A stretch of DNA of 64,000 bases from a virus. Shown piece after piece: positions 3,062-47,882 of this stretch (positions are counted from its first letter, which is position 1; each line of letters opens with the position of its first letter). A program made the translations under genes and the position numbers. The notes under the pieces are model-generated. The model was not told the origin of the DNA. It ran no database searches and worked only from the letters and a program-made list of their open reading frames with translations. The stretch is from IMG/VR virus record IMGVR_UViG_3300027747_004417; one strand, written 5' to 3'.

Positions 3062-3316
3062 ATGAAGGAATTGATTTGCAATAAGATAGAAATATTATTT
3101 ATGTTGCTTAGCTCTGTGCTTGCTTTCTTTGTTGCACAGACATCTTTTACACACAATAAGGTTAAAACTGTGGCTCCATTTTACATGGAGTTTAGAAATG
3201 ATTACTCAGGCGATTCAGACCCAGACAATAACTTATCCGGAAACTCAGGCATATCCCAGGACTATTACACAAAACAAGTTCTTCAATTTCTAAAGAGCAA
3301 AGATTCTTCTGAGTGA
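3062..3316 (+). CDS. Hypothetical membrane-anchored protein
   Basis: AAGGAGG RBS and an N-terminal hydrophobic helix. Confidence 0.45.
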   Translation: MKELICNKIEILFMLLSSVLAFFVAQTSFTHNKVKTVAPFYMEFRNDYSGDSDPDNNLSGNSGISQDYYTKQVLQFLKSKDSSE

Positions 3317-15176: not shown

Positions 15177-15308
15177 AACTTACCAGCCTTATATTATTAG
15201 AGCTAATAAATGGTGAATTTTAGCAATTTTTATCTTTGTTGTTGATAGATAAATTAATCATTTTATTATGTTGACCACTTGGGTAATCCACCAATTGATC
15301 AAACTAAG

Positions 15309-15381
15309 TGGAGAATAAGGGATTTGAACCCATAACCCCCGCCATGCAAAGGCGATGCTCTCCCAATTGAGCTAATTCCCC
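15309..15381 (-). tRNA. tRNA-Ala(TGC), CCA not encoded
   Basis: 73 nt. Acceptor stem GGGGAAT/ATTCTCC plus A, D arm AGCTCAATTGGGAGAGC, anticodon loop TT-TGC-AT and T loop GGTTCAAATCC. Confidence 0.93.
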
Positions 15382-16846: not shown

Positions 16847-17725
16847 TTGCCTTTAATAAATACCTGTATGGGAAAAACAGCTATTGCAATTAGAGGGCAC
16901 GAACGCGGTGCCATGACAGACAATGAATTTTCAAATGTTATATTTGAATTGTCAAATAAATATGACGTTGATATATTTTTGCATACATGGAATTTTAGCG
17001 AAGCTTCTTATAGCTGGAGAACAGTTCCCGATGAAAGATTTCACATAACTGAAGAGAAAGTAAAAAGCTACTTTTATAGAAATGAAATAAAGAAGATATT
17101 CGTAGAGGATGATGAAGAAATCGAATTGCACGGCAGAACCCTTGGCAAACTGGGCATAGTTACGGAGATTGCTATTCATCCCCATGATTTGACTAGAATT
17201 TTGCTCAGTGATTTAGGAAGTTGGGCCAAAAGGTGGGACTTAAGTCTTTTGTCTGCTAATCGTGAAAAAATATTTTGTTTTCTTCAATATGGTTGTCCAA
17301 TACTTCCATGGAAAAGAATGTGGCACGGAATATACACAGTTGTAAAGTTTATTAACGAATATGACAAATATGATCTTGTGCTCAATATAAGATTTGATAT
17401 ACTAAGATACAAAAGGTTGTTTAATCCCGGTTCGCCTTTGGTTAACTTTGAAGTTATAGACAAAATGCTGATGGAGTCCAAACCTGGCAACATTTTTACT
17501 TTTAATCGCCCAAGAAAGAGCTCTTGTATAGATAACATTTATACCGCTGAACCGGTTCCACTCCTGATGCTATGTCAGCGTTTTCATTTTAATTTAGATG
17601 ATTTACTTGAGTCTTATAGTCCTGAAGACTGGAATGCTATCCAAGAGCATTTGGTGTTCTTAGAAGCACAAAGAATTAAAGAAGCTATAAAAAATAAAAG
17701 CTTTGATCCCACTTATTTTTTATGA
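16847..17725 (+). CDS. Hypothetical protein, possibly glycosyltransferase-like
   Basis: IAIRGHER, DIFLHTW and YDLVLNIRFD pattern recalled from phage and giant-virus glycan-locus proteins. Confidence 0.4.
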   Translation: MPLINTCMGKTAIAIRGHERGAMTDNEFSNVIFELSNKYDVDIFLHTWNFSEASYSWRTVPDERFHITEEKVKSYFYRNEIKKIFVEDDEEIELHGRTLGKLGIVTEIAIHPHDLTRILLSDLGSWAKRWDLSLLSANREKIFCFLQYGCPILPWKRMWHGIYTVVKFINEYDKYDLVLNIRFDILRYKRLFNPGSPLVNFEVIDKMLMESKPGNIFTFNRPRKSSCIDNIYTAEPVPLLMLCQRFHFNLDDLLESYSPEDWNAIQEHLVFLEAQRIKEAIKNKSFDPTYFL

Positions 17726-18720
17726 AAATAGATATCGAAACTTTAAATCGTTATTACGAAGATGGCCTAGTTTCTAAGAACGAACATCCAGAGTTCCCTT
17801 TGCTTATCTGGAATTACACGCCAAAAACTCAGTATGAAAGATTATGGGACGACATAACCCTCACATGCAGAGCCTTAGTCACTGATTTTTATGGCAATGT
17901 TGTAGCAAAAAGTTTTGATAAGTTCTTTAACATTGAAGAAGAATCTATTCTTCCCAACGAGTCTTTTGAAGTATACGAGAAATTAGATGGATCTCTTATA
18001 ACTATATTTTGGTTTAGAGATCGGTTTGTTGTTGCTTCTAGGGGTTCCTTTTTTAGTGACCATGCCAAAGAAGCACAAGTTCTTCTAAATGAATATGATA
18101 CAAATTGTCTGGATAAAACAAAGTCTTATTCTTTTGAATTAATTGTACCTTGGAATAGAATAGTTTGTAATTATGGTTTTGATCGTAAGTTGGTTCTCTT
18201 GGCTAAGTTTGATGCTGACGGGAATGAATACGATATATCCAAATATAGCCCCTTTTTCACTGTTCCTAAAGTTTTTAATTTTCAAAATCTTAGTTCCATC
18301 AAAAACGTAATTCCTAAAAACGAAGAGGGCTATGTCATAAAGTTTGAAAAAGGAAAGAGGGTAAAGGTAAAAAGCGAATGGTACGTTAATGCCCACAGAC
18401 TGGTTTCTAGTGTTTCTGAAAAATTCATTTTAGAAATTTTGTCCTCCGGCGACACTGCGAATCTTTCCTGTACCTTTGCCCTGTTGCCGGACGAGGTTTG
18501 TGTTTGGGCCGAAGAGACTAAGACTAAATTTGAAAATAGATTTAATCAAATACTTTGTGAATGTAAAAACTCATTTAAGTCCTTTCCATCCAGAAAAGAG
18601 TCAGCTGCCTATTTTAACACTCAAAATTATCCTCATTTATTGTTTGCAATGTTGGACAATCAAAGTATAGATGATATGATATGGAAAATCATTAGATCGG
18701 AGATAAAAAGTGAACTATAA
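17722..18720 (+). CDS. RNA ligase, T4 Rnl1-like
   Basis: KSFDKFFN, YEKLDGSL (adenylylated Lys), SRGSF, SFEL, EGYVI and RVKVKSEWY motifs. Confidence 0.85.
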   Translation: MKIDIETLNRYYEDGLVSKNEHPEFPLLIWNYTPKTQYERLWDDITLTCRALVTDFYGNVVAKSFDKFFNIEEESILPNESFEVYEKLDGSLITIFWFRDRFVVASRGSFFSDHAKEAQVLLNEYDTNCLDKTKSYSFELIVPWNRIVCNYGFDRKLVLLAKFDADGNEYDISKYSPFFTVPKVFNFQNLSSIKNVIPKNEEGYVIKFEKGKRVKVKSEWYVNAHRLVSSVSEKFILEILSSGDTANLSCTFALLPDEVCVWAEETKTKFENRFNQILCECKNSFKSFPSRKESAAYFNTQNYPHLLFAMLDNQSIDDMIWKIIRSEIKSEL

Positions 18721-20551: not shown

Positions 20552-20714
20552 AGAATGGTTAAACGCACAGTTTAAATCAGAAGGCTTTGTAAGCAAAGGG
20601 AAGGCTCAGAACAGCCTTTTTAGACCAGGCCCCAGAGACATTAAACCAAAGCCAAGAGACGTTAAATTATGTGGCACTGCTGGTGGTCCAGGACCATGCC
20701 AAAGCGGCTCATAA
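20538..20714 (+). CDS. Small protein with capsid-targeting-like N-terminus
   Basis: Start taken at the ATG at 20538 (MIKFKEWLNAQFKSE). Confidence 0.45.
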   Translation: MIKFKEWLNAQFKSEGFVSKGKAQNSLFRPGPRDIKPKPRDVKLCGTAGGPGPCQSGS

Positions 20715-21974
20715 TTTGGTTTCTAGTTTACTTAGCCAACCTCTGGACTTGCTATAAGGCCATATTGTGCAACTTTTTGGTTGGCTTTTTACATTAAGAG
20801 TTACTTCTTTACTCAGCTTTTTAAACAGTAAGATATCTTTATCTTTTTCTTCTGTAAAGTCTTTTCTATATATTTCTTGGCCTTCCTCATCGTGGAAGCC
20901 AAAGTACCAAAAAGAGTAATCATCTGCGTACTCTATTTCTTCTTTAGTCCATGAAACCTCTAACGAGTACTCTGTTAGTTCTTCTGGTTTCTTCTGTCCC
21001 TCCATCTCCTTCTTCCAATCTTCTTCGGTTATTTCACCTTCGAAAGGTGGTGCTCCCTTTGGGATTGCTGGATGCAGTAATTTTTGAGAAAAGTCTACGC
21101 CTGTATAAATTTGATACTGGCTTAAAGTTTTTTCTTTTCCAAGTTCAAACTCGCCCAGGTCTACGCCAGAGTCTTCTATGCCTAGAAGTTGCTTTACTCT
21201 TTTCTTGCTTATTTCGTCTCTTTCCCACCAAGCAAGTTCTATTGTGCCCTTTTCCTTAAGATCATTGGTGTGATCTAGCCAATGTTTCTTTCTTTTATCT
21301 CTGGTGTACTCATGCCAAATTACATTTTTATTGGGATGCAATAGCTTGTACCCCATTGTAAAGCAGCGTGCACTTAATGATATGTCTGTTCCTTCAAAAT
21401 ATATTTCTGGATCATACTTGTATTCTTCGCAGAATGATCCTCTTGTAAACATAAAATGACCGCAAGCAAATCTAGCTGGGATGGGTTTGTCCACTTTATC
21501 CCATTGCATATAATCCGGTCTTAATACGGGCATATCGTTTTCATCGAACCCGGCTATACCCATTCGATAGGGCTCTATATTAAGTTTTTCTCCAGTAGAT
21601 GCTCGATACGCACCAGCGAATGAACTTAATATAGGCTTTTCTTCTCCTGATGCCTCGATCATATTGATTAACAACTCATCCCAATTCTTTTCAAACCTGT
21701 GATGAGAGTCAATCTGTAGCGTGAATTCTTCTCCATCATAAAGTTTTTGAGTTTGAGACTTTGCCCAACCTATTCCTTTGCTTTCTGTCCAATTTACGTC
21801 TATTATTTTAAACTTAGGGTTTATTAAGAACTCTTGTAGATCTTCTTTATCATCATGCTGCCAACAAATACCAAAACTTAGATCATTTGGTCTTTTTGCT
21901 TTTTTGATGCAGTCAACTATTGTTGGTTTTAGTTCTGGATCTCTGTACGACGTAATTTGTACGAATATTCTCAT
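20709..21974 (-). CDS. GT60-family (Gnt1/PF11397-like) polypeptide GlcNAc transferase
   Basis: IFVQITSYRDPEL, GICWQ, SKGIGWAK, LQIDSHHRF, EPEIYF-like DPEIYFEG and WHEY motifs. Confidence 0.85.
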   Translation of the reverse strand: MRIFVQITSYRDPELKPTIVDCIKKAKRPNDLSFGICWQHDDKEDLQEFLINPKFKIIDVNWTESKGIGWAKSQTQKLYDGEEFTLQIDSHHRFEKNWDELLINMIEASGEEKPILSSFAGAYRASTGEKLNIEPYRMGIAGFDENDMPVLRPDYMQWDKVDKPIPARFACGHFMFTRGSFCEEYKYDPEIYFEGTDISLSARCFTMGYKLLHPNKNVIWHEYTRDKRKKHWLDHTNDLKEKGTIELAWWERDEISKKRVKQLLGIEDSGVDLGEFELGKEKTLSQYQIYTGVDFSQKLLHPAIPKGAPPFEGEITEEDWKKEMEGQKKPEELTEYSLEVSWTKEEIEYADDYSFWYFGFHDEEGQEIYRKDFTEEKDKDILLFKKLSKEVTLNVKSQPKSCTIWPYSKSRGWLSKLETKL

Positions 21975-25001: not shown

Positions 25002-25338
25002 AGATTCAAGATTTAGAGAAAGTCTACCTAAAGAGTTTGAAGAAGAAGTAAGGAAGTACCAGCAAAACCCTGGTTGTGCGTGTAATGTTCCTTTGTATAA
25101 AAAGATAATCACAGAAGCTAAAGGGCCATTGCAAGCTTATTTTCCGAATAAGTCGATTGTCACTTTGGAAGAAGATGCTAAGAAATTAGCAGAAAATAAT
25201 TTCTCTGTTATCAGCTGCAGCATACACGAACTAGAATCCGAACTTAAAAAACTTCCTATAGGAAGGAAGCAGATAGCCGTAGCTCGATATGAAGATCAGG
25301 TTACTGTTGTAATTAACGAGCTAGACTTTATTTACTAG
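24958..25338 (+). CDS. Hypothetical protein
   Basis: GAGGAG RBS before the ATG at 24958, and a PGCAC motif. Confidence 0.55.
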   Translation: MSRPITLMDVKQALRDSRFRESLPKEFEEEVRKYQQNPGCACNVPLYKKIITEAKGPLQAYFPNKSIVTLEEDAKKLAENNFSVISCSIHELESELKKLPIGRKQIAVARYEDQVTVVINELDFIY

Positions 25339-26290
25339 CTGTGTAAACTTGTGTGTTTTCTTTTATATTCTCACAGGCATCTATCATTTTCAATGGATAC
25401 TTTTTGTACTTGGAGATTTCAATTGGAAGCTCATCGTCGTCTATCCTTCTAGATCCTAGTATTAAGGCGTTTTCATAGAAGTTCTTAGCCCTTTGAAGAT
25501 CGTTGTTTTTATAAAATATATCTCCGAGCATACACCAGAATTCTGCCATTAAAGGCTTTTCCGCTATACAGGATGTTATGTACCTTAATGCTCCTTCATA
25601 GTCATATTCTGATTTGACATATGATTTGACCATAGATAGGTAATACCTAGTCATTAAAGATGATGGTCTGTTTGAGGTGCTTTTATAAAGGTAAGTTTCG
25701 CCTGTGTTTACGAAGTTTTTCCATTCTTTTCTTAAAAGATGTATGCAAGACAAGTAGTATAATGGTTCGTCGTGTGTTGGGCTTCTAACCCTCCACTCAT
25801 TAAGTATCTTTATCTTATCTTCATCCAAGTACTCTTTGTTTGGAGTTATATAAACTTCTAAGTTTGTGGCACCTTCACCGGGATCGGCAGACTCAAATAT
25901 GGGATTCTTGAATCTTATATTTTTGTTCTTATGCCATATTCTTAATTCTTTGGTTATTAAATCGCCATTAATTTTTTTGATTCTATATGTTACGTTTTCA
26001 TCCGATAGGTCTATTTTATCTGGAAATGACACTATGGATTCATAAGGTTCTAAGAACATCATCCATGATTTGTTGTACTTTATCATGTAGTTTTTTGCTT
26101 CACTAAAGTCGTTTTTGAACGGAACATTAACTACTTCTACTTTTTTAAAACTTTTGCATGTGTTTATAACGTCTACCGAAGATCCTGCGTCCCCTATTAT
26201 TATTTTATCACATAATGGATATATTTGTTTTATAGAGTCTTCTATTGTCCTCTCGTTGTTTTTAACTAAAATATTAATTGTCAGCGACAT
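25328..26290 (-). CDS. GT2-family glycosyltransferase with TPR-like C-terminus
   Basis: INILVKNNERTI, IIIGDAGS, NDFSEAKN and WMMFLEPYE (degenerate DxD), followed by TPR-like helices (AEFWCMLGDIFY). Confidence 0.75.
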   Translation of the reverse strand: MSLTINILVKNNERTIEDSIKQIYPLCDKIIIGDAGSSVDVINTCKSFKKVEVVNVPFKNDFSEAKNYMIKYNKSWMMFLEPYESIVSFPDKIDLSDENVTYRIKKINGDLITKELRIWHKNKNIRFKNPIFESADPGEGATNLEVYITPNKEYLDEDKIKILNEWRVRSPTHDEPLYYLSCIHLLRKEWKNFVNTGETYLYKSTSNRPSSLMTRYYLSMVKSYVKSEYDYEGALRYITSCIAEKPLMAEFWCMLGDIFYKNNDLQRAKNFYENALILGSRRIDDDELPIEISKYKKYPLKMIDACENIKENTQVYTASK

Positions 26291-39573: not shown

Positions 39574-39907
39574 CACTTACATATATCTTGCAAAAAGAGA
39601 CAAAAAAGGCATCAAAATACTAACCACCTTTATGTCTCAAAACCACATACCAGAAAGAATAAAGGACCTCTCAATTATACCTTTAGATCCCACGGTTTAT
39701 CAAAAGGTATCACAGATGATTTATGACGAGAGATTGAACTGGGAGCCTTGGATAGAGTCCGCAGCTACTTACGATGATTTAAAGGCTAAGTTAAAAAAGA
39801 GAGGATACACAGGTATCCCACTTAGCTCACAACCAGAGATCTATACAGAGAATATTGTTATCAACACTCTGGTCAATAAAAAAGTTATGATACAAAAACC
39901 TAGTTGA
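39557..39907 (+). CDS. Hypothetical protein
   Basis: GGAG RBS before the ATG at 39557. Confidence 0.55.
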   Translation: MLALIDTYIYLAKRDKKGIKILTTFMSQNHIPERIKDLSIIPLDPTVYQKVSQMIYDERLNWEPWIESAATYDDLKAKLKKRGYTGIPLSSQPEIYTENIVINTLVNKKVMIQKPS

Positions 39908-40181
39908 TGTTTATATAAGACTTGCTTACTTTAAAACTTCCTTTTTTAGTTTTTATAGTTAGCATATCTTGATCTTCTTCTAAAATTGTTCCACCATTTC
40001 TGTGGAATTCAATTATGGCTTTTTCGTTATCCAAAGCCTCACTAACGACCCGCAGCTTCTTGAAAGAAACTTTAGAAGTCACTGTAGCTCCTATTGTGCT
40101 TTCGAGCTTGGGCGGCGTGGAGTCTTGCATCCACTTTTTAAATTCATTTACATTAAATATACTAAATGGGTCTCGTTTCAT
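39900..40181 (-). CDS. Hypothetical protein
   Basis: 4-bp overlap with the upstream Maf-like gene. Confidence 0.55.
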   Translation of the reverse strand: MKRDPFSIFNVNEFKKWMQDSTPPKLESTIGATVTSKVSFKKLRVVSEALDNEKAIIEFHRNGGTILEEDQDMLTIKTKKGSFKVSKSYININ

Positions 40182-41023
40182 TTTTCAAAAAAATCTCGTA
40201 TGTCCGACTGCTCTATATAAGCAGCAGATTTATAGATTAAACCATCAGAAAAACTTCCTGCTTTAACGTCTCTGTACTTGTCGCTTAGTAACCAAAAAAG
40301 GTTTGTGTCTATTGTTTCTTGTGCTCTCAACTGTTGAGGGTAAGTCCATAGACCATTTTCTAGGCGAACCGATCCTGGCCTTTCTTCTTGAAAAGATTCA
40401 TCGCAAAACATCAAAAGCAGTTTTTCTACGCCAAATTTATAGGCCAAGCCTATAGATGCACATATTGGGTTCCTATAGTCATCTATAGACCAAATTGCTT
40501 CCTTTTGTCCCGAACCCTTGTAATACTTTTCGCTAACTGGATTGTATTTCAACACTGTTCCATTGTAGTTCTTTAAAAAGTTATGATTAGCTCTACATGA
40601 AGCTATACAACGCGGCAGCATTTTTTTTCTAGGAAGGTCTGATAAGGAGTCCTCGTAAGGATTATTGGTTAAATAAAAGGACATGCTTCTTTCACACGAC
40701 CATTTTTTTAGACTACCATTAACTCCAATTATTGTTGCATCAATGCCTTTAATATTTTCTATTATTTCTTGATGCTTTTCTTTAAATTTATATCCATCTG
40801 ATATTATTATTACGTTCGGTAGATAAAAGTTTTCTGTATCTACCCATGAGTACCTTTTCATGTTGTTTTCAAATTCATTGTTTATGAATAAAAAATGGTC
40901 CTCATTATTTATTGTGTTGTTGATATCTAACAACGGGACATTCTCAATGGTAAAGTTTCTTACCCACACACCACCGGGTGTCATTAAATATTGATTTCCG
41001 TTTGGATATTTTTTGATCTTCAT
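40178..41023 (-). CDS. Maf/DUF115-like (MptE-like fold) putative protein glycosyltransferase
   Basis: VIIISDG, IIGVNGSL, FYLTNNP and SIGLAYKFGVEKLLLMFCD match the Maf-type pattern (I..G.G / I.VN / A..LG...I.L.G.D). Confidence 0.55.
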   Translation of the reverse strand: MKIKKYPNGNQYLMTPGGVWVRNFTIENVPLLDINNTINNEDHFLFINNEFENNMKRYSWVDTENFYLPNVIIISDGYKFKEKHQEIIENIKGIDATIIGVNGSLKKWSCERSMSFYLTNNPYEDSLSDLPRKKMLPRCIASCRANHNFLKNYNGTVLKYNPVSEKYYKGSGQKEAIWSIDDYRNPICASIGLAYKFGVEKLLLMFCDESFQEERPGSVRLENGLWTYPQQLRAQETIDTNLFWLLSDKYRDVKAGSFSDGLIYKSAAYIEQSDIRDFFEK

Positions 41024-41030
41024 AAAGGGC

Positions 41031-44000
41031 CTATTTACCTGGGCATGGAACTATGGCAACGCATTGTGCATCACCATTTTCGCCTGTTATTCTTCCTATA
41101 TCCAGATTAATTTTTACGTCTATAGGAGCTCCTTTATAAACTAGTTCGATTTCAGGCTTTTCTGGTAGAACTAATTTAATTTCTGACGGTGCACCGACTA
41201 ATTCTATCGTAGATGGAATGCCAACAACCTGAATTCGATCTGGTATAGAAGTTGCATCAATTTTTATGTCAGGGAATGATTCCGGTGCTATTATCGGTAT
41301 AGAACTGGGAAGGTTTTTAAAGTCTACCTCTATTGAGCTTGGTAGATTAGTTGCTATAAAATCTACGGATATAACGCTTGGTATATCTGCTACCATCCTT
41401 ATTTCTGAAGGGAAGTCCTTAGGAGATATAATGTTTATATCAGGTATCTCAGGGGCTACCACTTTTATCATAGCTGGAACATCGTGTACAACTCTTATAT
41501 CCGGCACTTCTGGGAACTTGACTAATATCTGTGAGGGTATATTAAATTCTCCTACATTCACTTCTATCGCGTCTGGCCCCGAATCTTCTACGTTTTCAAG
41601 TGCCCTAAAAGGAGATCCCCCAGGTGGACAAACTATTGTTACCGTACACTCGCATTGAGGTGGGTTGCCCCATATTACTGGAATTCCTGGCGGTGTACCG
41701 AACGATACACTTATAGGATCAATTGTAATGCGTGTTGGGAAAGTTAGTGGGTCAACAGTAATGTGTGTTGGGAAAGTCAGCGGATCAACATTAATGCGTG
41801 TTGGGAAAGTCAGCGGATCAACATTAATGTGTGTTGGGAAAGTCAGCGGATCAACATTAATGCGTGTTGAGAAAGTTAGTGGGTCAACAGTAATGTGTGT
41901 TGGGAAAGTTAGTGGGTCAACAGTAATGTGTGTTGGGAAAGTCAGCGGATCAACTGATATGTGTGTTGGGAAAGTCAGCGGATCAACTGATATGTGTGTT
42001 GGGAAAGTCAGCGGATCAACTGATATGTGTGTTGGGAAAGTTAGCGGATCAACTGATATGTGTATTGGGAAAGTCAGCGGATCAACTGATATGTGTGTTG
42101 GGAAAGTCAGCGGATCAACTGATATGTGTGTTGGGAAAGTTAGCGGATCAACTGATATGTGTATTGGGAAAGTCAGCGGATCAACATTAATGCGTGTTGG
42201 GAAAGTTAGTGGGTCAACAGTAATGTGTGTTGGGAAAGTCAGCGGATCAACATTAATGCGTGTTGGGAAAGTTAGTGGGTCAACAGTAATGTGTGTTGGG
42301 AAAGTCAGCGGATCAACTGATATGTGTGTTGGGAAAGTCAGCGGATCAACTGATATGTGTGTTGGGAAAGTTAGTGGGTCAACAGTAATGTGTGTTGGGA
42401 AAGTCAGCGGATCAACTGATATGTGTGTTGGGAAAGTTAGCGGATCAACTGATATGTGTATTGGGAAAGTTAGTGGATCAACTTTTATGTTGGGGAAAGT
42501 TAGTGGATCAACTTTTATGTTGGGGAAAGTTAGTGGATCAACTTTTATGTTGGGGAAAGTTAGTGGATCAACTTTTATGTTGGGGAAAGTTAGTGGGTCA
42601 ACTTTTATGTTGGGGAAAGTTAGTGGATCAACTTTTATGTTGGGGAAAGTTAGTGGATCAACAGTAATGTGTGTTGGGAAAGTTAGTGGGTCAACAGTAA
42701 TGTTTGTTGGGAAAGTTAGTGGGTCAACAGTAATGTTTGTTGGGAAAGTTAGTGGATCAACAGTAATGTTTGTTGGGAAAGTTAGTGGGTCAACAGTAAT
42801 GTTTGTTGGGAAAGTTAGTGGGTCAACAGTAATGTTTGTTGGGAAAGTTAGTGGGTCGATTGATATATGTGTTGGGAATGTTAGTGGATCGATTGTTATA
42901 TGTGTTGGAAACGTCAACGGATCAATTGTAATATGTGTTGGAAAAGTTAGTGGGTCAATTGTTATATGTGTTGGGAAAGTTAGTGGATCGATTGTTATGT
43001 TTAGTGGATCGATTGTTATATTGGTTGGAAAAGTCAACGGATCAACTGTGATGTGAGTTGGGAAAGTTAACGAATCTACATGTATGTTTGGTATTGGACC
43101 GAAAGTTATGCTTGGAATATTAGGTATTGGCCCAAACTCTACCATTGTTGGAAAACAAATTTGAACGTCAACATAAACGTTTGGCACTGGGCCAAACTCA
43201 ATTAACGGATTAATTAAAGGTATAGGCCCGAATTCAACGTATGAGTTTATTGTAGGGACCGGCCCGAATTCGACCAAAGTTCCAAAAGACGGCACTGGGC
43301 CGAATTCTATTATTGTGGGTATAGGAGGATCTACAACTATTATTGATGGTATCTCTATAGGTCCTATAGGTCCTATGTCTAAACAGGGGAAAACTATAGG
43401 AGGTATTACAGGCGGTTCCACCGTTGGTATAGTAGGAATGGCTAATGCTGGTATTTTAGGTATCTGAGGTATGCTTAATTCAAATGTAGTATTTGTACTT
43501 GAAGGAGCTGGGTCTTTAGGTGAGTCCCTAGAAACTGGAGTTAGTACCAACTGGCACTTATCATTACTCAGTGTTAGAACAGGGTCTATCGTAGAGTTTG
43601 TTGCGTAAACGTGAGTCCCAGCTGTAGAATTAGCGGTGGACTGTCCATCTCCAAAATCTAGTCTGTAGCTTGTAAAACTGCCTTGTATTGATATGCTATA
43701 CTGGGCTGTTGTGCCCAAAGCGTCAGAGCTAACTATATAAAAGTCAAAAACCACGTCAGGACAGGTATAATCATCAAACAGGACAGGTATGCTTTCAAGA
43801 TGCCTAATTCTCCAGTCTAGTGTTTCCTTGTCTTCATCAAAATTAACTCCTATAAATTTTTCTGCATTTATTATGGCATCAGCGATTTGATTGTGATGCT
43901 CGGCAATAACAAACCCTCTGATCTCCGTACCAACAGGATTGTCTTTGGTTTTTTTTCCCCCTAAGTTCCTGCAACAACGCTTAAATTTTCTTACTTTTCC

Positions 44001-44471
44001 TTCAAACACAAGCTGTATGTCATCTAAAGAATATCCTGATCCTCCATGCACTACATCTAAGCTGGCAATAGAATTATTTTGTACGATTGCTGTTATTTTT
44101 GCTCCGCTGCCTTTTGAGCTGACAATTTTAACGGAAGGGTAGAAATACCCAGACCCACCATCAATTATTGGTATGCTGATTATTGTGCCATCCTGGTTTA
44201 TTTCTACTCTTCCTATAGAAAGACCAGACCCTAAAGGATCTGTTTTCTCTACATCGTCATAATAAAAAAGTTCTCCATTTATACTTGCAAACCCATTATC
44301 AGCCCATATCTCTGGTCTTTCATCATTTACGGGTTCTATTGATATTTCATTTGCCCAAGCTAGATTGTCTTCCGTTGTGACAGTCTCAGATGTGTTGTAG
44401 ACTAGGAACAGAGTTTCATCGCTGTCATACTTTTTTGGATACGCAGGTTTTGGGGGAAAAAAATTTACCAC
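41031..44471 (-). CDS. Large appendage/fibre protein with PKD domain and mucin-like Pro/Thr repeat
   Basis: Shared AEHHN N-terminal domain, GGSGY repeats, a PKD motif (LDFGDG...HVY), EFGPVP repeats and about 43 DPLTFP units. Confidence 0.7.
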   Translation of the reverse strand: MVNFFPPKPAYPKKYDSDETLFLVYNTSETVTTEDNLAWANEISIEPVNDERPEIWADNGFASINGELFYYDDVEKTDPLGSGLSIGRVEINQDGTIISIPIIDGGSGYFYPSVKIVSSKGSGAKITAIVQNNSIASLDVVHGGSGYSLDDIQLVFEGKVRKFKRCCRNLGGKKTKDNPVGTEIRGFVIAEHHNQIADAIINAEKFIGVNFDEDKETLDWRIRHLESIPVLFDDYTCPDVVFDFYIVSSDALGTTAQYSISIQGSFTSYRLDFGDGQSTANSTAGTHVYATNSTIDPVLTLSNDKCQLVLTPVSRDSPKDPAPSSTNTTFELSIPQIPKIPALAIPTIPTVEPPVIPPIVFPCLDIGPIGPIEIPSIIVVDPPIPTIIEFGPVPSFGTLVEFGPVPTINSYVEFGPIPLINPLIEFGPVPNVYVDVQICFPTMVEFGPIPNIPSITFGPIPNIHVDSLTFPTHITVDPLTFPTNITIDPLNITIDPLTFPTHITIDPLTFPTHITIDPLTFPTHITIDPLTFPTHISIDPLTFPTNITVDPLTFPTNITVDPLTFPTNITVDPLTFPTNITVDPLTFPTNITVDPLTFPTHITVDPLTFPNIKVDPLTFPNIKVDPLTFPNIKVDPLTFPNIKVDPLTFPNIKVDPLTFPNIKVDPLTFPIHISVDPLTFPTHISVDPLTFPTHITVDPLTFPTHISVDPLTFPTHISVDPLTFPTHITVDPLTFPTRINVDPLTFPTHITVDPLTFPTRINVDPLTFPIHISVDPLTFPTHISVDPLTFPTHISVDPLTFPIHISVDPLTFPTHISVDPLTFPTHISVDPLTFPTHISVDPLTFPTHITVDPLTFPTHITVDPLTFSTRINVDPLTFPTHINVDPLTFPTRINVDPLTFPTHITVDPLTFPTRITIDPISVSFGTPPGIPVIWGNPPQCECTVTIVCPPGGSPFRALENVEDSGPDAIEVNVGEFNIPSQILVKFPEVPDIRVVHDVPAMIKVVAPEIPDINIISPKDFPSEIRMVADIPSVISVDFIATNLPSSIEVDFKNLPSSIPIIAPESFPDIKIDATSIPDRIQVVGIPSTIELVGAPSEIKLVLPEKPEIELVYKGAPIDVKINLDIGRITGENGDAQCVAIVPCPGK
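41716..43079 (-). repeat. Coding tandem repeat, ~43 units of 33 bp (30 bp in six units)
   Basis: (V/I)DPLTFP(THIT/TNIT/THIS/TRIN/IHIS/NIK), arranged in blocks of like variants. Units counted by hand. Confidence 0.95.
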
Positions 44472-44484
44472 AATCTAGTCTTTC

Positions 44485-46803
44485 TTAAAAAATGTACATT
44501 TGCCATTGTGTGGCGTTTGCTCTATCTGGACCATTAACTATAGACTTGAACGTCATGTCCGCCTCATTGAACTTTATAAAACATTTATTGCTGTAGTCAT
44601 AACTTAAAAACACCAACTTATCTCCATCGGAAGCTGATATCAAAGTATTTGCTGGGTCGTCAAACCCTATTTTACTTGTATCTTGAAGACTCCTAAACAG
44701 AGATGAGGTTGTCCCTGGACCTCCTGAGACCCATGATCCTGTGTTTGGGCTATAAGCTACCACCGATCCACTGTTATTAAAGAAATAAACTCCTTGACTT
44801 AATGAAACCAAAGATCCCTCAACCTTAGACCCAGGCATGTCTGAAACTTTTCTTATGTCTACAAATGGCTCTGATGTATTTCCACTCGTCTTGTAGAATG
44901 AACTTATCCTATAAAATAAGCCACCCTCATTTCTTAAAAGGTATCCTGAATCTTCATACCAAGTTGATCTATAAACACTAAAATAACCCTTACTTAGATT
45001 GCTATAATCGAAATCTAGTGTGTTTGTAGTAAGTTCGTTGGCACCATTTTTATAGTTTGAGCTTTGCATTGTTGAATCACTTGAACTAAAATCTAATATG
45101 TCATATTTAGTCTTTTGTTGTGATGTTGCTGCGTTGCCATCTGAAACTGCGCCGAACAGGAAATAAATACTTTGGTTGTAACCGAAACTAGCCCAGTTCC
45201 AAGGCCTATTTATGTGTCCTTTTGATGTGTAGGTGTCTTCAAACCCATTGAACTCTGAGAACATAATTTTTTCGTTGCTAATCGGATCCGACAGATCTCT
45301 ACCGCTAGCCCAATAAACCAGAGCTGTGCCGCCACCACCTGATGGTGTCGTTGTTCTTTTAATTGCTCCGTTATTCTTTAAAAATTCATTCTTTGACTTG
45401 GATTCCATCGATGAAGAATCTAGAAAGCTTGAGTTTGCATCAGATGTTAAATTGCTTCCTTTGACTTTAAAAGTTTCACTTATTATTCCAAATTCATAAG
45501 AATAAGATGTTGGCCCATTTGTGTACCAAAGCCAAAGATTGTAGTTTTCAATAATGTCAAAAGCATTTTTATAATTCGTTATTCTGTAAGCATTGAACTC
45601 TGTGTCTGTTCTTAGTATTAAGTCAAAATATCCACCGCTCCCAAACAAAGCCTTCGTGCTTTTAGAGTTGTTATGAATCAAGTCATCAGAAAAAGACCAA
45701 GTATAAGTGTCTACGGCGTCTATGCGTTTATTTGATCCGTCAACTACTTCTCCTGAGTAGGTTCTGTAAGACCCATCTTCGCTGGTATAAGAGCCAGGCA
45801 CGACTCTTATATTTTCATCGTGTATTCTTACATCTATCAAGGTGTTTATTGGTGCTCTTATTTTGGGGGTGGCATTTGTATATGGTTTATCATCCCCTCC
45901 TGGGAGTGGATCGCCTGGGGTTAAAGATTGTCCACTTCTTTCTACTATCTCCACAGTTGCTTCATCCGGAGCAGGAAACCGGACATTTATAAGCTTAGGA
46001 AATACAACTACGTCGCTAAGCTGGTAAGAACCAAAATCATTTAGCACTGTTAGAGAAACATCGTATATTCCTGGGGAGCTATATGTCTTCTGTACTTTGC
46101 AAAGCCCCGATGAAGGGCATACAACTTCTGCCAATATGTTGGATATATTGGAAGGAACTACCGAATCGTTTACTGTTATCAAACTTATGTTGGTTATCTC
46201 TGTGTTGTCTCCAAAGTTCCAAATGTGTTTAACGGAACTAGCAACACCGTCTGTACCTAAGAAAAAGCTTTGATCGGTGAACTCCACAGTGAGAGGAGCT
46301 AACCCTACAACCTTATCCACTTTAAACCAGGCCTTTGGAGCCAAGACTAACCTTCTTAGATAGTTTATCCTTTCTTCCATTGTTCCTCTTAGAGGATATT
46401 TTCCCACTTCGCCTTTTCTCCCAGCAAATCTTTCTACTTCTATTAAGGCATCTTTTAAATTGTTGTGGTGCAATGAAACAACGTTTTGCGTTACGTTCGT
46501 TGCTCTTTTAGGTTTAGGATTGTCTATGAAACCTGGAAGAAGTTCGAGTCCATCAAATGATGTTAATGTTCTAGAAGAATAGTAAAATGACAAAGCTCTT
46601 AACTCTGGCTCGCTGCATTGCTCTGTTAATGTTATTATTCCTGTTGAATCAAATGTTCTAATAACATTTTCATCTCCCACAATTGATATATAAGTGTCAC
46701 CGGGGTTATAATCTTCCGCTAGAGATACACGCAAGCTATCTGATACATGAAACAGATTCTGATCTGTGTCTATTGACTGTGGGTAGTTTACTTTTGGTAT
46801 CAT
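44485..46803 (-). CDS. PKD-domain virion appendage protein
   Basis: YPQSID...HHNNLKDALIEVERFAG N-terminal domain, PKD motifs (PLTVEFTDQS, WNFGD, YSSPGIYDVSL) and a propeller-like C-terminus. Confidence 0.7.
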   Translation of the reverse strand: MIPKVNYPQSIDTDQNLFHVSDSLRVSLAEDYNPGDTYISIVGDENVIRTFDSTGIITLTEQCSEPELRALSFYYSSRTLTSFDGLELLPGFIDNPKPKRATNVTQNVVSLHHNNLKDALIEVERFAGRKGEVGKYPLRGTMEERINYLRRLVLAPKAWFKVDKVVGLAPLTVEFTDQSFFLGTDGVASSVKHIWNFGDNTEITNISLITVNDSVVPSNISNILAEVVCPSSGLCKVQKTYSSPGIYDVSLTVLNDFGSYQLSDVVVFPKLINVRFPAPDEATVEIVERSGQSLTPGDPLPGGDDKPYTNATPKIRAPINTLIDVRIHDENIRVVPGSYTSEDGSYRTYSGEVVDGSNKRIDAVDTYTWSFSDDLIHNNSKSTKALFGSGGYFDLILRTDTEFNAYRITNYKNAFDIIENYNLWLWYTNGPTSYSYEFGIISETFKVKGSNLTSDANSSFLDSSSMESKSKNEFLKNNGAIKRTTTPSGGGGTALVYWASGRDLSDPISNEKIMFSEFNGFEDTYTSKGHINRPWNWASFGYNQSIYFLFGAVSDGNAATSQQKTKYDILDFSSSDSTMQSSNYKNGANELTTNTLDFDYSNLSKGYFSVYRSTWYEDSGYLLRNEGGLFYRISSFYKTSGNTSEPFVDIRKVSDMPGSKVEGSLVSLSQGVYFFNNSGSVVAYSPNTGSWVSGGPGTTSSLFRSLQDTSKIGFDDPANTLISASDGDKLVFLSYDYSNKCFIKFNEADMTFKSIVNGPDRANATQWQMYIF

Positions 46804-47882
46804 GAAATTTTAATTCCTAGTCCTTTAACATTATTTGGATTTATAAATGCTTTTTTTAGAGTCTGATTACTCAGAAGCACCAGCAGAGAAGGATTGTATT
46901 CTCCCTTGTTTTTGTAAACTATTCTTATCGTGTGTTCGTTTGGATCTTCTTTAAATATTGTTTGTGTGGTTTCTGTTGTTCCATATTCTCTTGCGTCCCC
47001 ATCTAATATCCACCATCTTTTGATTATGTCCCCGTCTGTTTGATCAACAAACTCAAAAACTGTTCCTTGGCTTACTTCCGGGTTTGACTCCACCCAACCA
47101 GCCGCCTCATCAGAAGTTCCATATAAGGGAGAAACGTAAAAGAACGCCTGCTTTTCTTCTTTATCCACTGTTATGTAGTTGGACTTTGTGCAATACCCTT
47201 GTGCTCCTAAAGATGTTATAACGTTTAGCTGAACCGTGAATATGCCTTCGGTCGTATAAACGTGCGTAGGAGACCTTTCTATAGATGTTGATCCATCTCC
47301 AAAGTCCCAAAGAGATCTAACAATAGGTCCCGTGCTAAAATTTTGAAATCTTACTGTTAATGGAGGAGAACCTCTGACTATTGATGCTCTAAAAAGAGCT
47401 TTAGGTGAAAGAAACCTTGCTTCCTGCCTTTTTAGTATTTCATTTAAGGATCCACTCGATGGCGTCAAAACGGTCCCCAGATTTTTTTCTATATTTATAA
47501 GAGCATCCTTTACGGCGTTGTGATGTTCTGCAAACACAGCATTGCTGACGCTACTCCCCATCGGCCATACATTTTGTCTAGACCCTGCAAACCCTCTTAT
47601 TAAATCTTTGAAAACTCCTGAAGATTTATTCCCATAATAGACCATTTCTGCACTACCTGGTTTCCCTGGTGGCGGCCCTACCCTAAGTATGCCTGTATCT
47701 GGGAAGCCACTATTGTCTTCAACTATCACATACTTTCCGTTGTAACTTAGACTCTGTTTAAGAGTAGTCACAGAATTGTTAGATGCTACATAGAGCTGTT
47801 CTTTATCATCGAGCACCACAGGATAAAGAGACAGTTGTCCTGACTCATATCCTAGATCTTGTGACGATACTTTACTTGCCAT
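46800..47882 (-). CDS. PKD-domain virion appendage protein
   Basis: YPVVLD...AEHHNAVKDALINIEKNLG N-terminal domain and two PKD repeats (PLTVRFQNFS...WDFGDG...HVY..G.FTV.L). Confidence 0.75.
   Translation of the reverse strand: MASKVSSQDLGYESGQLSLYPVVLDDKEQLYVASNNSVTTLKQSLSYNGKYVIVEDNSGFPDTGILRVGPPPGKPGSAEMVYYGNKSSGVFKDLIRGFAGSRQNVWPMGSSVSNAVFAEHHNAVKDALINIEKNLGTVLTPSSGSLNEILKRQEARFLSPKALFRASIVRGSPPLTVRFQNFSTGPIVRSLWDFGDGSTSIERSPTHVYTTEGIFTVQLNVITSLGAQGYCTKSNYITVDKEEKQAFFYVSPLYGTSDEAAGWVESNPEVSQGTVFEFVDQTDGDIIKRWWILDGDAREYGTTETTQTIFKEDPNEHTIRIVYKNKGEYNPSLLVLLSNQTLKKAFINPNNVKGLGIKIS

What the first reader, a model, noticed from the sequence alone, without database searches (positions are those of the whole stretch)
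40178..44471. Candidate phage-encoded virion O-glycosylation system: Maf-like transferase directly behind a mucin-like fibre gene
Seen: the 1146-aa appendage gene carries roughly 100 Ser/Thr in a Pro-rich repeat and is followed 7 bp later on the same strand by a Maf/DUF115-like gene. A degenerate GT2 sits in the same appendage operon (49183), and GT60 (20709), GT2-TPR (25328), GT2 (26452), GT7-like (14397), a possible GT (16847) and a sulfotransferase-like gene (3283) are dispersed among structural genes. Known: Maf proteins glycosylate flagellin Ser/Thr with nonulosonic acids, and GT60 members prime Thr-linked mucin glycans. Inference: a multi-step pathway builds glycans on virion appendages, for shielding, host-glycan mimicry, solubility or adhesion. 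The Maf assignment is motif-level only and no sugar-nucleotide synthesis genes are in the window.
Basis: partly seen in the sequence, partly recalled or inferred. Interest (0 to 1): 0.82.

Follow-up and report, generated by a model that had tools for sequence, protein, structure and literature searches.

The report
Remodelled mini-Maf beside phage repeat fibre
A huge uncultured freshwater phage encodes, right after a fibre gene built from about 41 short Thr/Pro-rich repeats, a cut-down and remodelled relative of the bacterial Maf enzymes that put acidic sugars on flagella, so it may chemically decorate its own fibre, but key catalytic residues differ and nothing has been measured.

Summary
The sequence observation holds. 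window:41031-44471(-) is a 1146-aa appendage protein. It carries about 41 tandem 11-aa units (VDPLTFPTHIT) with 107 Ser/Thr and 83 Pro. Seven bases downstream lies a 281-aa gene (40178-41023). Its AlphaFold model (pLDDT 96.5) best matches the central domain of the Maf flagellin glycosyltransferase 5MU5 (Z 21.0). A profile comparison with bacterial Maf-like proteins gives 96% probability.

Three points weaken the interpretation:
- The array is not mucin-like, with 38% Ile/Leu/Val/Phe in a periodic pattern.
- The mini-Maf keeps one of three residues essential in Maf and lacks the GPS loop, though its own pocket motifs are highly conserved.
- Five related huge-phage genomes have no NeuB or CMP-sugar synthetase, and the GT60 gene is absent from all five.

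The gene pair co-occurs in 80 of 80 related loci. However, the whole module is syntenic in one lineage, so this linkage is inherited.

My best reading, at about 0.4, is a phage-specific Maf-derived transferase that modifies the neighbouring fibre. The proposed multi-enzyme mucin pathway is not supported.

This scan has flagged Maf/DUF115-like genes in phage structural modules of many other genomes. Those are unchecked notes. I found no shared sequence with them and no published description.

The parts
41031..44471 (-). P0002, a 1146-aa fibre-like appendage protein. Layout: N-terminal anchor module, GGSGY beta domain (about res 80-165), HHN helix, PKD domain (res 251-304), Pro-rich linker, 11-aa repeat array, Cys linker, and a C-terminal domain of about 12 'IPxxIxV' units ending in CVAIVPC.
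   Evidence: ORF and translation. PKD domain and PHROG structural-protein hits. N- and C-termini are conserved in about 50 distinct homologues of 488-1998 aa. It lies in the baseplate/tail operon.
41721..43106 (-). Tandem array of about 41 units of 11 aa (six units of 10 aa), consensus VDPLTFPTHIT, protein residues 456-917.
   Evidence: TRF: period 33, 39.5 copies, 90% matches. Unit census. Composition: 107 Ser/Thr, 83 Pro, 38% ILVF. Homologues carry arrays of period 10-12 with core hP[ST]xIx[VIF], from about 0 to about 140 units.
41034..41720 (-). Conserved C-terminal domain of P0002 (res 918-1146), with invariant Pro/Ile positions in 'IPxxIxV' units and conserved Cys pairs.
   Evidence: Alignment A2 of 40 sequences. 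The AF2 monomer model is low-confidence (pLDDT 54). No PDB relative by sequence.
40178..41023 (-). P0001, a 281-aa stand-alone Maf/MptE-fold (DUF115) protein, here called 'mini-Maf'. It has a remodelled pocket: SDG 75-77, N102, NNP 120-122, S142/R144, DDYRNP 181-186, D208.
   Evidence: AF2 pLDDT 96.5. 5MU5 Foldseek E 1e-7 and Z 21.0 over 246 residues. hhalign Prob 96%. Sub-threshold PF01973 hits on homologues. 131 representative clusters. Conservation map.
39900..40181 (-). 93-aa ORF overlapping the end of P0001 by 4 bp. It is conserved downstream of P0001 and has no family assignment.
   Evidence: ORF list. tblastn hits in 67 of 85 related loci directly after the P0001 homologue. No Pfam or PHROG hit.
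44485..46803 (-). 772-aa paralogous fibre-like protein. It shares the N-terminal 'PKxxYP..D.D..LF' and HHN-helix module and a PKD domain with P0002.
   Evidence: BLASTP against P0002. PKD domain. Conserved upstream of the P0002 homologue in 58 loci.
46800..47882 (-). 360-aa paralogous fibre-like protein with the same N-terminal module and PKD domain.
   Evidence: BLASTP E 3e-10 against P0002 res 153-291. PKD 1.7e-14. Found in 51 loci.
20709..21974 (-). GT60-family glycosyltransferase.
   Evidence: PF11397 4e-60. PHROG glycosyltransferase 5e-88. Absent from five related genomes that carry the P0001 homologue.
25328..26290 (-). Glycosyltransferase-like protein with TPR repeats. No link to the fibre is shown.
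   Evidence: PHROG beta-1,4-GT 5e-9. TPR and sub-threshold SunS-like hit. Present in 4 of 5 relatives, elsewhere in the genome.

Best explanation
The 281-aa protein is a phage-specific, stand-alone derivative of the catalytic central domain of Maf-type protein O-glycosyltransferases. It is made together with the late tail and baseplate proteins.

Proposed mechanism (all inferred):
- Inside the infected cell it transfers a group from a nucleotide-activated donor onto the fibre protein encoded just upstream.
- The donor is most likely an acidic sugar such as Kdo or a nonulosonic acid, drawn from the host's CMP-sugar pool.
- The likely acceptors are the Ser/Thr hydroxyls that recur in each 10-12-residue 'hP[S/T]xIxV' unit.

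Shown here:
- the fold and the homology to Maf;
- the strict gene linkage;
- a strongly conserved pocket in the mini-Maf;
- recurring Ser/Thr flanked by apolar residues in the fibre.

Not shown: transfer itself, the donor, the acceptor and its sites.

Because the canonical Maf loop and two of three catalytic residues are replaced, the chemistry or donor probably differs from that of flagellin Mafs.
For: - Fold. The AF2 model has pLDDT 96.5. The best PDB match is Maf 5MU5: Foldseek E 1e-7, VIA Z 21.0, 246 residues aligned to Maf 189-515. That stands well above MptE HPPK (Z 14.6), SteA (Z 11), thiamin pyrophosphokinase (TPK, about Z 8) and sialyltransferases (Z 7-8).
- Sequence. hhalign of the 58-sequence family alignment against 18 bacterial PF01973 proteins gives Prob 96%, E 3e-9 over 225 columns. 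PF01973 covers positions 6-170 of 171 on homologues at 20-24 bits. Atlas clusters of the family carry PF01973 on 11-37% of members.
- Pocket. The columns conserved at 88% or more (S75 D76 G77, N102, N120 P122, S142 R144, D181 D182 Y183 R184 N185) lie directly after the C-ends of the parallel strands of the model, as do N121 (86%) and D208 (70-90%). This is the usual ligand site of this fold.
- The Maf acid-2 residue is retained as D208, with the Maf spacing of 64/23 against 63/23.
- Linkage. All loci with enough upstream DNA have the fibre homologue directly before the Maf-like gene. All 80 loci found from the fibre C-terminus have the Maf-like gene downstream: 73 abut it, and 7 have a 0.85-0.94 kb insert, one of which (L148) was examined and encodes an HNH-type homing endonuclease.
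- Gene spacing of 7 bp and a 4-bp overlap indicate co-transcription.
- Acceptor context. Every array has 1-3 Ser/Thr per unit flanked by Ile/Leu/Val/Phe. Maf sites are reported to lie next to apolar residues, with no sequon (PMC11339370).
- Donor. Mafs accept CMP-Kdo and CMP-Neu5Ac (10.1101/2020.06.03.131540). It is established knowledge, not tested here, that Gram-negative hosts make CMP-Kdo. A phage therefore need not encode donor synthesis.
- The family is virus-restricted. There are 4 hits in 185,579 species genomes, all on MAG contigs.
Against: - In 18 bacterial Maf-like proteins the GPS loop is invariant, acid-1 is D/E in 17 of 18, and the Ser/Thr is present in 15 of 18. Alanine substitutions at the acid-1, Ser and acid-2 positions abolish Maf activity (10.1101/2020.06.03.131540). 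The phage family has SDGxxF in place of the loop, N121 at acid-1 and N185 at the Ser position.
- Distant family members vary even at D208.
- No accessory acceptor-binding domain is present, and no fused form was found. Mafs need a TPR domain or the GlfM factor for acceptor recognition (10.1101/2023.12.03.569772).
- NeuB and CMP-sugar synthetase were not found in five related genomes, three of them at least 98% complete.
- The whole module from the 360-aa fibre gene to the volactin gene is syntenic across the lineage, so adjacency is inherited.
- Identity correlations between the Maf-like gene and the fibre are no stronger than with volactin.
- Ser/Thr enrichment could be purely structural, because these residues favour beta strands.
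Confidence: 0.4

Rival explanations
1. P0001 is a non-glycosylating fibre accessory protein. It could be an assembly or maturation factor, or a protein that docks on the conserved C-terminal tip of the fibre. This would resemble T4 gp38, which is encoded right after gp37. In this reading the Maf-derived fold has been re-used as a binding module, for the fibre or for a host sugar.
For: - Its position directly downstream of the fibre gene is where phage fibre chaperones and adhesins are usually encoded (established knowledge of T4 gp37/gp38 and of Mu and P2 Tfa).
- Two of three Maf catalytic residues and the GPS loop are lost.
- It diverges as fast as the fibre proteins and much faster than volactin: median identity 46% against 46-48% and 72%.
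- The fibre C-terminus is highly conserved and could be a docking site.
Against: - No known fibre chaperone or adhesin has this fold, and there was no hit to Tfa or gp38 families.
- The most conserved columns are polar residues in the ligand crevice, which points to a selected small-molecule site rather than a protein-binding surface.
- There are no hypervariable segments of the kind expected for a receptor-binding adhesin.
Confidence: 0.25
2. P0001 is an MptE/Maf-fold enzyme whose target is not the fibre. The target could be a small molecule (a pyrophosphokinase-type reaction), host envelope glycans or phage DNA. Its place beside the fibre gene would then only reflect frozen gene order in this lineage.
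For: - The fold superfamily includes pyrophosphokinases: MptE Z 14.6 and thiamin pyrophosphokinase (TPK) about Z 8.
- The DD and R residues in the pocket would suit a Mg-nucleotide.
- The whole module is syntenic, so adjacency carries little weight.
- Relatives encode other sugar-nucleotide enzymes elsewhere, with 1-4 epimerase/dehydratase genes.
Against: - The match to Maf is clearly better and longer than to MptE or TPK (246 against 193 and about 125 aligned residues).
- The gene sits inside a tightly packed late structural operon, with a 7-bp gap and a 4-bp overlap.
- The pair survives insertions of 0.85-0.94 kb between the two genes in 7 loci, one of them a homing endonuclease.
Confidence: 0.2
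3. A multi-step mucin-type pathway is primed by GT60, extended by the dispersed GT2, GT7 and sulfotransferase genes, and capped by the Maf-like enzyme. It builds complex glycans on a mucin-like fibre.
For: - GT60, GT2 and GT-TPR genes do exist in the window.
- Unchecked notes of this scan report further glycan-gene clusters elsewhere in the same genome.
Against: - GT60 is absent from five relatives that keep the fibre and Maf-like pair.
- The genes at 3283, 16847 and 49183 have no supported family.
- The array is not mucin-like in composition.
- Nothing links the dispersed GTs to the fibre. They could equally act on DNA or host polysaccharide.
Confidence: 0.07

Closest known systems
Maf (motility accessory factor) flagellin nonulosonic-acid O-glycosyltransferases: M. 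magneticum Maf (PDB 5MU5), C. botulinum CbMaf, G. kaustophilus GkMaf; Pfam PF01973
   Same: - Same central-domain fold (Z 21.0, 246 residues aligned).
- Profile homology (Prob 96%).
- Acid-2 Asp retained, with the same 23-residue spacing from the Ser position.
- Encoded beside a fibrous, surface-exposed protein whose Ser/Thr residues are flanked by apolar residues.
   Different: - 281 aa against about 430-900 aa, with no N- or C-terminal accessory domains.
- GPS loop replaced by SDGxxF, acid-1 D/E replaced by Asn, catalytic Ser/Thr replaced by Asn.
- Below the Pfam threshold.
- No nonulosonic-acid synthesis genes in relatives.
- The neighbouring protein is a phage fibre, not flagellin.
Archaeal MptE 6-hydroxymethyl-7,8-dihydropterin pyrophosphokinase (PDB 8SD5)
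   Same: Shares the core MptE-like fold (Z 14.6, 193 residues). There is a weak profile hit (E 0.66) in which the beta-1 loop and the G-x-D strand align.
   Different: It lacks the extra elements that P0001 shares with Maf. It is a metabolic enzyme in a cofactor pathway, it keeps the GxGPS loop, and it has no structural-gene context.
Virion O-glycosylation of mycobacteriophages (Freeman et al. 2023, Cell Host Microbe, PMC10527164; seen only as cited in PMC12619734, not read here)
   Same: Phage-encoded transferases are thought to decorate the phage's own structural proteins inside the host.
   Different: According to the citing paper, the glycans sit at the C-termini of the capsid and tail-tube subunits. 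Here the enzyme is a Maf-derived domain, the candidate acceptor is a tandem-repeat baseplate fibre, and nothing has been measured.
Other MptE-like (DUF115) proteins of uncultured Caudovirales in BFVD (e.g. A0A6J5PG89, A0A0F7L3H2)
   Same: Same fold (TM 0.62-0.66, E 1e-9 to 1e-6). They are viral and of unknown function.
   Different: No detectable sequence similarity to P0001 by direct search. Many are longer or are fused to methyltransferase domains.

Membership tests
Maf flagellin O-glycosyltransferases (PF01973 central domain) | Central modified GT-A / MptE-like fold | tested here: met
   AF2 pLDDT 96.5. 5MU5 Foldseek E 1e-7 and VIA Z 21.0, rmsd 4.2 over 246 residues. hhalign Prob 96%, E 3e-9.
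Maf flagellin O-glycosyltransferases (PF01973 central domain) | Match to Pfam PF01973 above its gathering score (34.6 bits) | tested here: not met
   No hit for P0001 even at E 10. Homologues score 20-24 bits over HMM positions 6-170.
Maf flagellin O-glycosyltransferases (PF01973 central domain) | G-P-S nucleotide-binding loop after the first strand | tested here: not met
   GPS is 18/18, 18/18 and 17/18 in bacterial Maf-like proteins. The phage family has S75-D76-G77-x-x-F, so only the Gly aligns.
Maf flagellin O-glycosyltransferases (PF01973 central domain) | Three residues essential by mutagenesis: acid-1 (MmMaf 324 / CbMaf D272), Ser (CbMaf S334), acid-2 (MmMaf 415 / CbMaf D357) | tested here: not met
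   By hhalign and spacing (64/23 against 63/23), acid-1 maps to N121 (86% Asn), Ser to N185 (88% Asn) and acid-2 to D208 (kept in 70-90%). The mutagenesis is from 10.1101/2020.06.03.131540. The mapping is by profile alignment, not by structural superposition.
Maf flagellin O-glycosyltransferases (PF01973 central domain) | Accessory N- and C-terminal domains, or a GlfM partner, for acceptor recognition | tested here: not met
   The model aligns only to Maf residues 189-515. No longer or fused relatives were found. The conserved 93-aa downstream ORF was not tested for GlfM likeness.
Maf flagellin O-glycosyltransferases (PF01973 central domain) | Genomic association with CMP-nonulosonic-acid synthesis genes (NeuB/PseI/LegI, CMP-sugar synthetase) | tested here: not met
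   PF03102 and PF02348 gave no match in five related huge-phage records, three at least 98% complete. The window's own genome is not held.
Maf flagellin O-glycosyltransferases (PF01973 central domain) | Transfer of a nonulosonic or ulosonic acid to Ser/Thr of the partner protein | not testable with these tools
   Needs co-expression and mass spectrometry.
Mucin-like (PTS) domain | Ser/Thr/Pro-dominated, hydrophilic tract with low hydrophobic content | tested here: not met
   Array residues 456-917: Ser+Thr 23%, Pro 18%, Ile/Leu/Val/Phe 38%, mean Kyte-Doolittle +0.27. Homologues: Ser+Thr 11-29%, hydrophobic 28-45%.
MptE-type pterin pyrophosphokinase | Compact 215-240-aa MptE fold as the best structural match, with a GxGPS loop | tested here: not met
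   8SD5 ranks second (Z 14.6 against 21.0 for Maf) with fewer aligned residues. The loop is not conserved.
Phage tail-fibre assembly chaperones / gp38-type adhesins | Encoded directly downstream of the fibre gene, with homology to a known Tfa, gp38 or gp57A family | tested here: inconclusive
   The position criterion is met. There is no hit to any such family in Pfam, PHROGs or NCBIfam. Binding was not resolved.

The most novel reading that the evidence does not exclude
A phage-only, active-site-remodelled 'mini-Maf' uses the host's CMP-Kdo or nonulosonic-acid pool, or a different nucleotide-activated donor. It places one acidic group on the Ser/Thr of every 10-12-residue unit of a baseplate fibre. 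The unit number ranges from about 0 to about 140 among relatives, so fibre length and charge or glycan load would scale together. That would make it a tunable, sugar-coated bottle-brush appendage on huge freshwater phages.
Probability: 0.2. Interest if true: 0.8.

Novelty: new variant of a known kind. Interest (0 to 1): 0.55.

Why it matters
Self-glycosylation of phage particles has been shown only for a few mycobacteriophages, and with different enzymes.

If this mini-Maf modifies the fibre, Maf-type protein O-glycosylation would extend from flagella to virus appendages. It would also provide a minimal 281-aa enzyme paired with a simple tandem-repeat acceptor, which could be useful for glyco-engineering. 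It might help explain how huge phages tune fibre solubility, protease resistance or host adhesion.

If it does not, the family is a clear case of a glycosyltransferase fold re-used for another fibre-linked role. In either case it is a core, phage-restricted gene of a widespread freshwater huge-phage lineage, with no cultured member.

Tried and rejected
- Complex prediction of P0001 with the fibre C-terminal part (alignments A1 and A2) gave no verdict (score 0.00). This is not evidence either way.
- The AF2 monomer model of four repeat units plus the C-terminal domain had pLDDT 54 and no secondary structure. It cannot show whether the array is folded or disordered, so no fold search was run on it.
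- The search for related loci for those distant members found nothing in viral contigs or metagenome contigs. Two alignments were too diverse to search.
- No whole genome is held for the window.
- No fused or longer relatives of P0001 were found. This is weak evidence.
- PDB sequence searches for the fibre gave nothing beyond weak PKD hits.
- The T4 late-promoter motif TATAAATA is not enriched: 3 matches against 5.3 expected.
- No RNA holder was listed among the sequencing runs.
- Spearman correlations of identity between P0001 and the fibre (0.81) are no higher than with volactin (0.81). There is therefore no co-evolution signal beyond phylogeny.
- The literature searches found no description of a Maf/DUF115 protein in a phage fibre module.
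- The sequence look-up in this scan's notes found no look-alike of P0001.
Full report
**What the window is.**
- The 64-kb window carries T4-type structural genes: a portal with an intein, a gp23-type capsid protein, a tail sheath, gp15-like, gp5-like and baseplate proteins.
- The closest public record is LR756511.1, a 595-kb uncultured phage. Its capsid protein is 79% identical.
- The DNA occurs in freshwater metagenomes from several studies.
- The finding lies in a long minus-strand tail and baseplate operon.

**The observation.**
- ORF 41031-44471(-) encodes 1146 aa. ORF 40178-41023(-) encodes 281 aa and starts 7 bp after the first ORF's stop. A 93-aa ORF overlaps its end by 4 bp.
- TRF finds a 33-bp unit repeated 39.5 times at 90% identity.
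- In protein terms, residues 456-917 are about 41 units with consensus VDPLTFPTHIT. They hold 107 Ser/Thr and 83 Pro.
- The label 'mucin-like' is not right. The array is 38% Ile/Leu/Val/Phe in an alternating pattern, and it is slightly hydrophobic overall.

**The fibre protein.**
- Its N-terminal module (PKxxYP..D.D..LF, an HHN helix, and a PKD domain) is shared with the two upstream genes of 772 and 360 aa. The phage therefore has three paralogous appendage proteins.
- About 50 distinct homologues keep the N- and C-terminal parts. Their middle ranges from about 115 to about 1570 residues.
- The arrays differ in sequence but share a period of 10-12 and a core 'hydrophobic-P-[S/T]-x-I-x-[V/I/F]'. 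Some are Cys-rich, for example PPSFDCISFCQ.
- The conserved C-terminal domain is built of the same kind of unit, with invariant Pro and Ile. There the residue after Pro is often Asp, Glu, Lys or Ala. The hydroxyl is thus frequent but not obligatory.
- An AF2 monomer model was uninformative (pLDDT 54). No solved relative exists by sequence.

**The 281-aa protein.**
- Pfam, PHROGs and NCBIfam give nothing at normal thresholds.
- An exhaustive search finds 131 representative clusters, almost all 270-300 aa.
- With a 58-sequence alignment, AlphaFold gives pLDDT 96.5.
- Foldseek ranks the Maf glycosyltransferase 5MU5 first (E 1e-7). VIA-align gives Z 21.0 over 246 residues of Maf's central domain (189-515). 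That is ahead of archaeal MptE HPPK (Z 14.6), SteA (Z 11), thiamin pyrophosphokinase (TPK, about Z 8) and GT42/GT29 sialyltransferases (Z 7-8).
- PF01973 matches homologues along nearly its whole length, but at 20-24 bits against a 34.6 cut-off.
- I collected 18 bacterial PF01973 proteins from Gammaproteobacteria (the unpublished genome G047 was left out). hhalign against the phage family gives Prob 96%, E 3e-9.
- The would-refute condition 'lacks the Maf/MptE fold' therefore fails. The fold assignment stands.

**Is it a working Maf?**
- Published mutagenesis shows three essential positions in Maf: acid-1, a Ser, and acid-2 (10.1101/2020.06.03.131540).
- In my 18 bacterial sequences these are D/E in 17 of 18, S/T in 15 of 18 and D in 18 of 18, with spacing 63/23. 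The GPS loop is invariant.
- The phage family has N121, N185 and D208 at spacing 64/23, and SDGxxF in place of the loop. Only one of three catalytic positions is retained.
- The family's own loop motifs are SDG, N102, NNP, S142/R144 and DDYRNP. They are its best conserved columns and lie just after the C-ends of the parallel strands.
- That pattern indicates a selected ligand pocket with altered chemistry, not a decayed pseudo-enzyme.
- The protein has none of the accessory domains that give Mafs their acceptor specificity (10.1101/2023.12.03.569772; PMC11339370). No fused forms were found.

**Linkage.**
- Starting from the Maf-like gene, every locus with upstream DNA has the fibre homologue directly before it.
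- Starting from the fibre C-terminus, 80 of 80 loci have the Maf-like gene downstream. Seven have a 0.85-0.94 kb insert between the two genes. Of the two insert ORFs examined, the one in L148 is an HNH/HTH-type homing endonuclease and the one in L131 has no Pfam hit.
- However, the whole run (360-aa fibre, 772-aa fibre, repeat fibre, Maf-like gene, 93-aa ORF, 189-aa ORF, 80-aa ORF, volactin) is syntenic across the lineage.
- Identity correlations show nothing beyond shared phylogeny. The linkage is real but inherited.
- The family is virus-restricted, with four MAG contigs among 185,579 species genomes. It is absent from cultured phages, with one hit among 50,697 records.

**Donor and pathway.**
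- Five related huge-phage records, three at least 98% complete, have no NeuB and no CMP-sugar synthetase. They do have 1-4 epimerase/dehydratase genes.
- Mafs can use CMP-Kdo (10.1101/2020.06.03.131540). Gram-negative hosts make CMP-Kdo, which is established knowledge and was not tested here. The absence of donor genes therefore weakens the idea but does not refute it.
- The GT60 gene is genuine (4e-60), but it is missing from all five relatives. The GT-TPR gene is present in four of them.
- The genes at 3283, 16847 and 49183 have no family support.
- The proposed multi-step mucin-type pathway is thus unsupported.

**Verdict.**
- My best reading (about 0.4) is a Maf-derived, phage-specific transferase that modifies the adjacent fibre, with unknown donor and sites.
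- The rivals are:
  - a non-catalytic fibre accessory or tip protein (0.25);
  - an enzyme with a different target that is held here only by frozen synteny (0.2);
  - the full multi-GT model (0.07).
- Notes of this scan report Maf/DUF115-like genes in structural modules of many other phages. These notes are unchecked, and P0001 shares no sequence words with them.
- I found no published description.
- BFVD holds other phage MptE-like proteins with the same fold.

Noticed in passing
window:37420-38424 (-): A 334-aa protein matches Pfam Volactin (PF25216) over its full length (1.9e-68). This actin family turned up in the literature search only in haloarchaeal studies. It is conserved in 71 of 85 related huge-phage loci, a few kb downstream of the Maf-like gene. 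The scan already has a follow-up on it (e1-5876115).
   Followed up: partly
window:3979-6516 (+): The T4-type portal gene carries an intein (PF14890 5e-13, inserted before the Portal_T4 region).
   Followed up: no
window:20709-21974 (-): A clear GT60-family glycosyltransferase (PF11397 4e-60) is an accessory gene. Neither the Pfam model nor the protein itself finds a match in five related huge-phage genomes.
   Followed up: partly
L148:3697-4512 (+); also L149, L150 and L145 (about 0.84 kb inserts); L129, L131 and L147 (0.94 kb inserts): In seven related loci a gene is inserted between the fibre gene and the Maf-like gene. In L148 it is an HNH/HTH-type homing endonuclease. In L131 it is a 301-aa ORF with no family.
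   Followed up: partly
L001:9973-11997 (LR756511.1); L074 and L076: In some relatives the fibre array is Cys-rich (unit PPSFDCISFCQ, two Cys per 11 residues). From memory, this recalls disulfide-stapled narrow beta-helices such as beetle antifreeze proteins. It was not tested.
   Followed up: no
window:27305-27844 (+) and 17722-18720 (+): A phage-encoded sigma-70 region-2 protein (3.7e-8) and a T4 Rnl1-type RNA ligase (1.4e-13) lie among the structural genes. A tRNA-Ala lies at 15308-15381.
   Followed up: no
window:41024-41053 (-): There is no Shine-Dalgarno-like sequence in the 30 nt before the ATG of the Maf-like gene (TAGTTCCATGCCCAGGTAAATAGGCCCTTT). This would fit a host that does not rely on SD sequences, such as Bacteroidota, but it was not examined further.
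   Followed up: no
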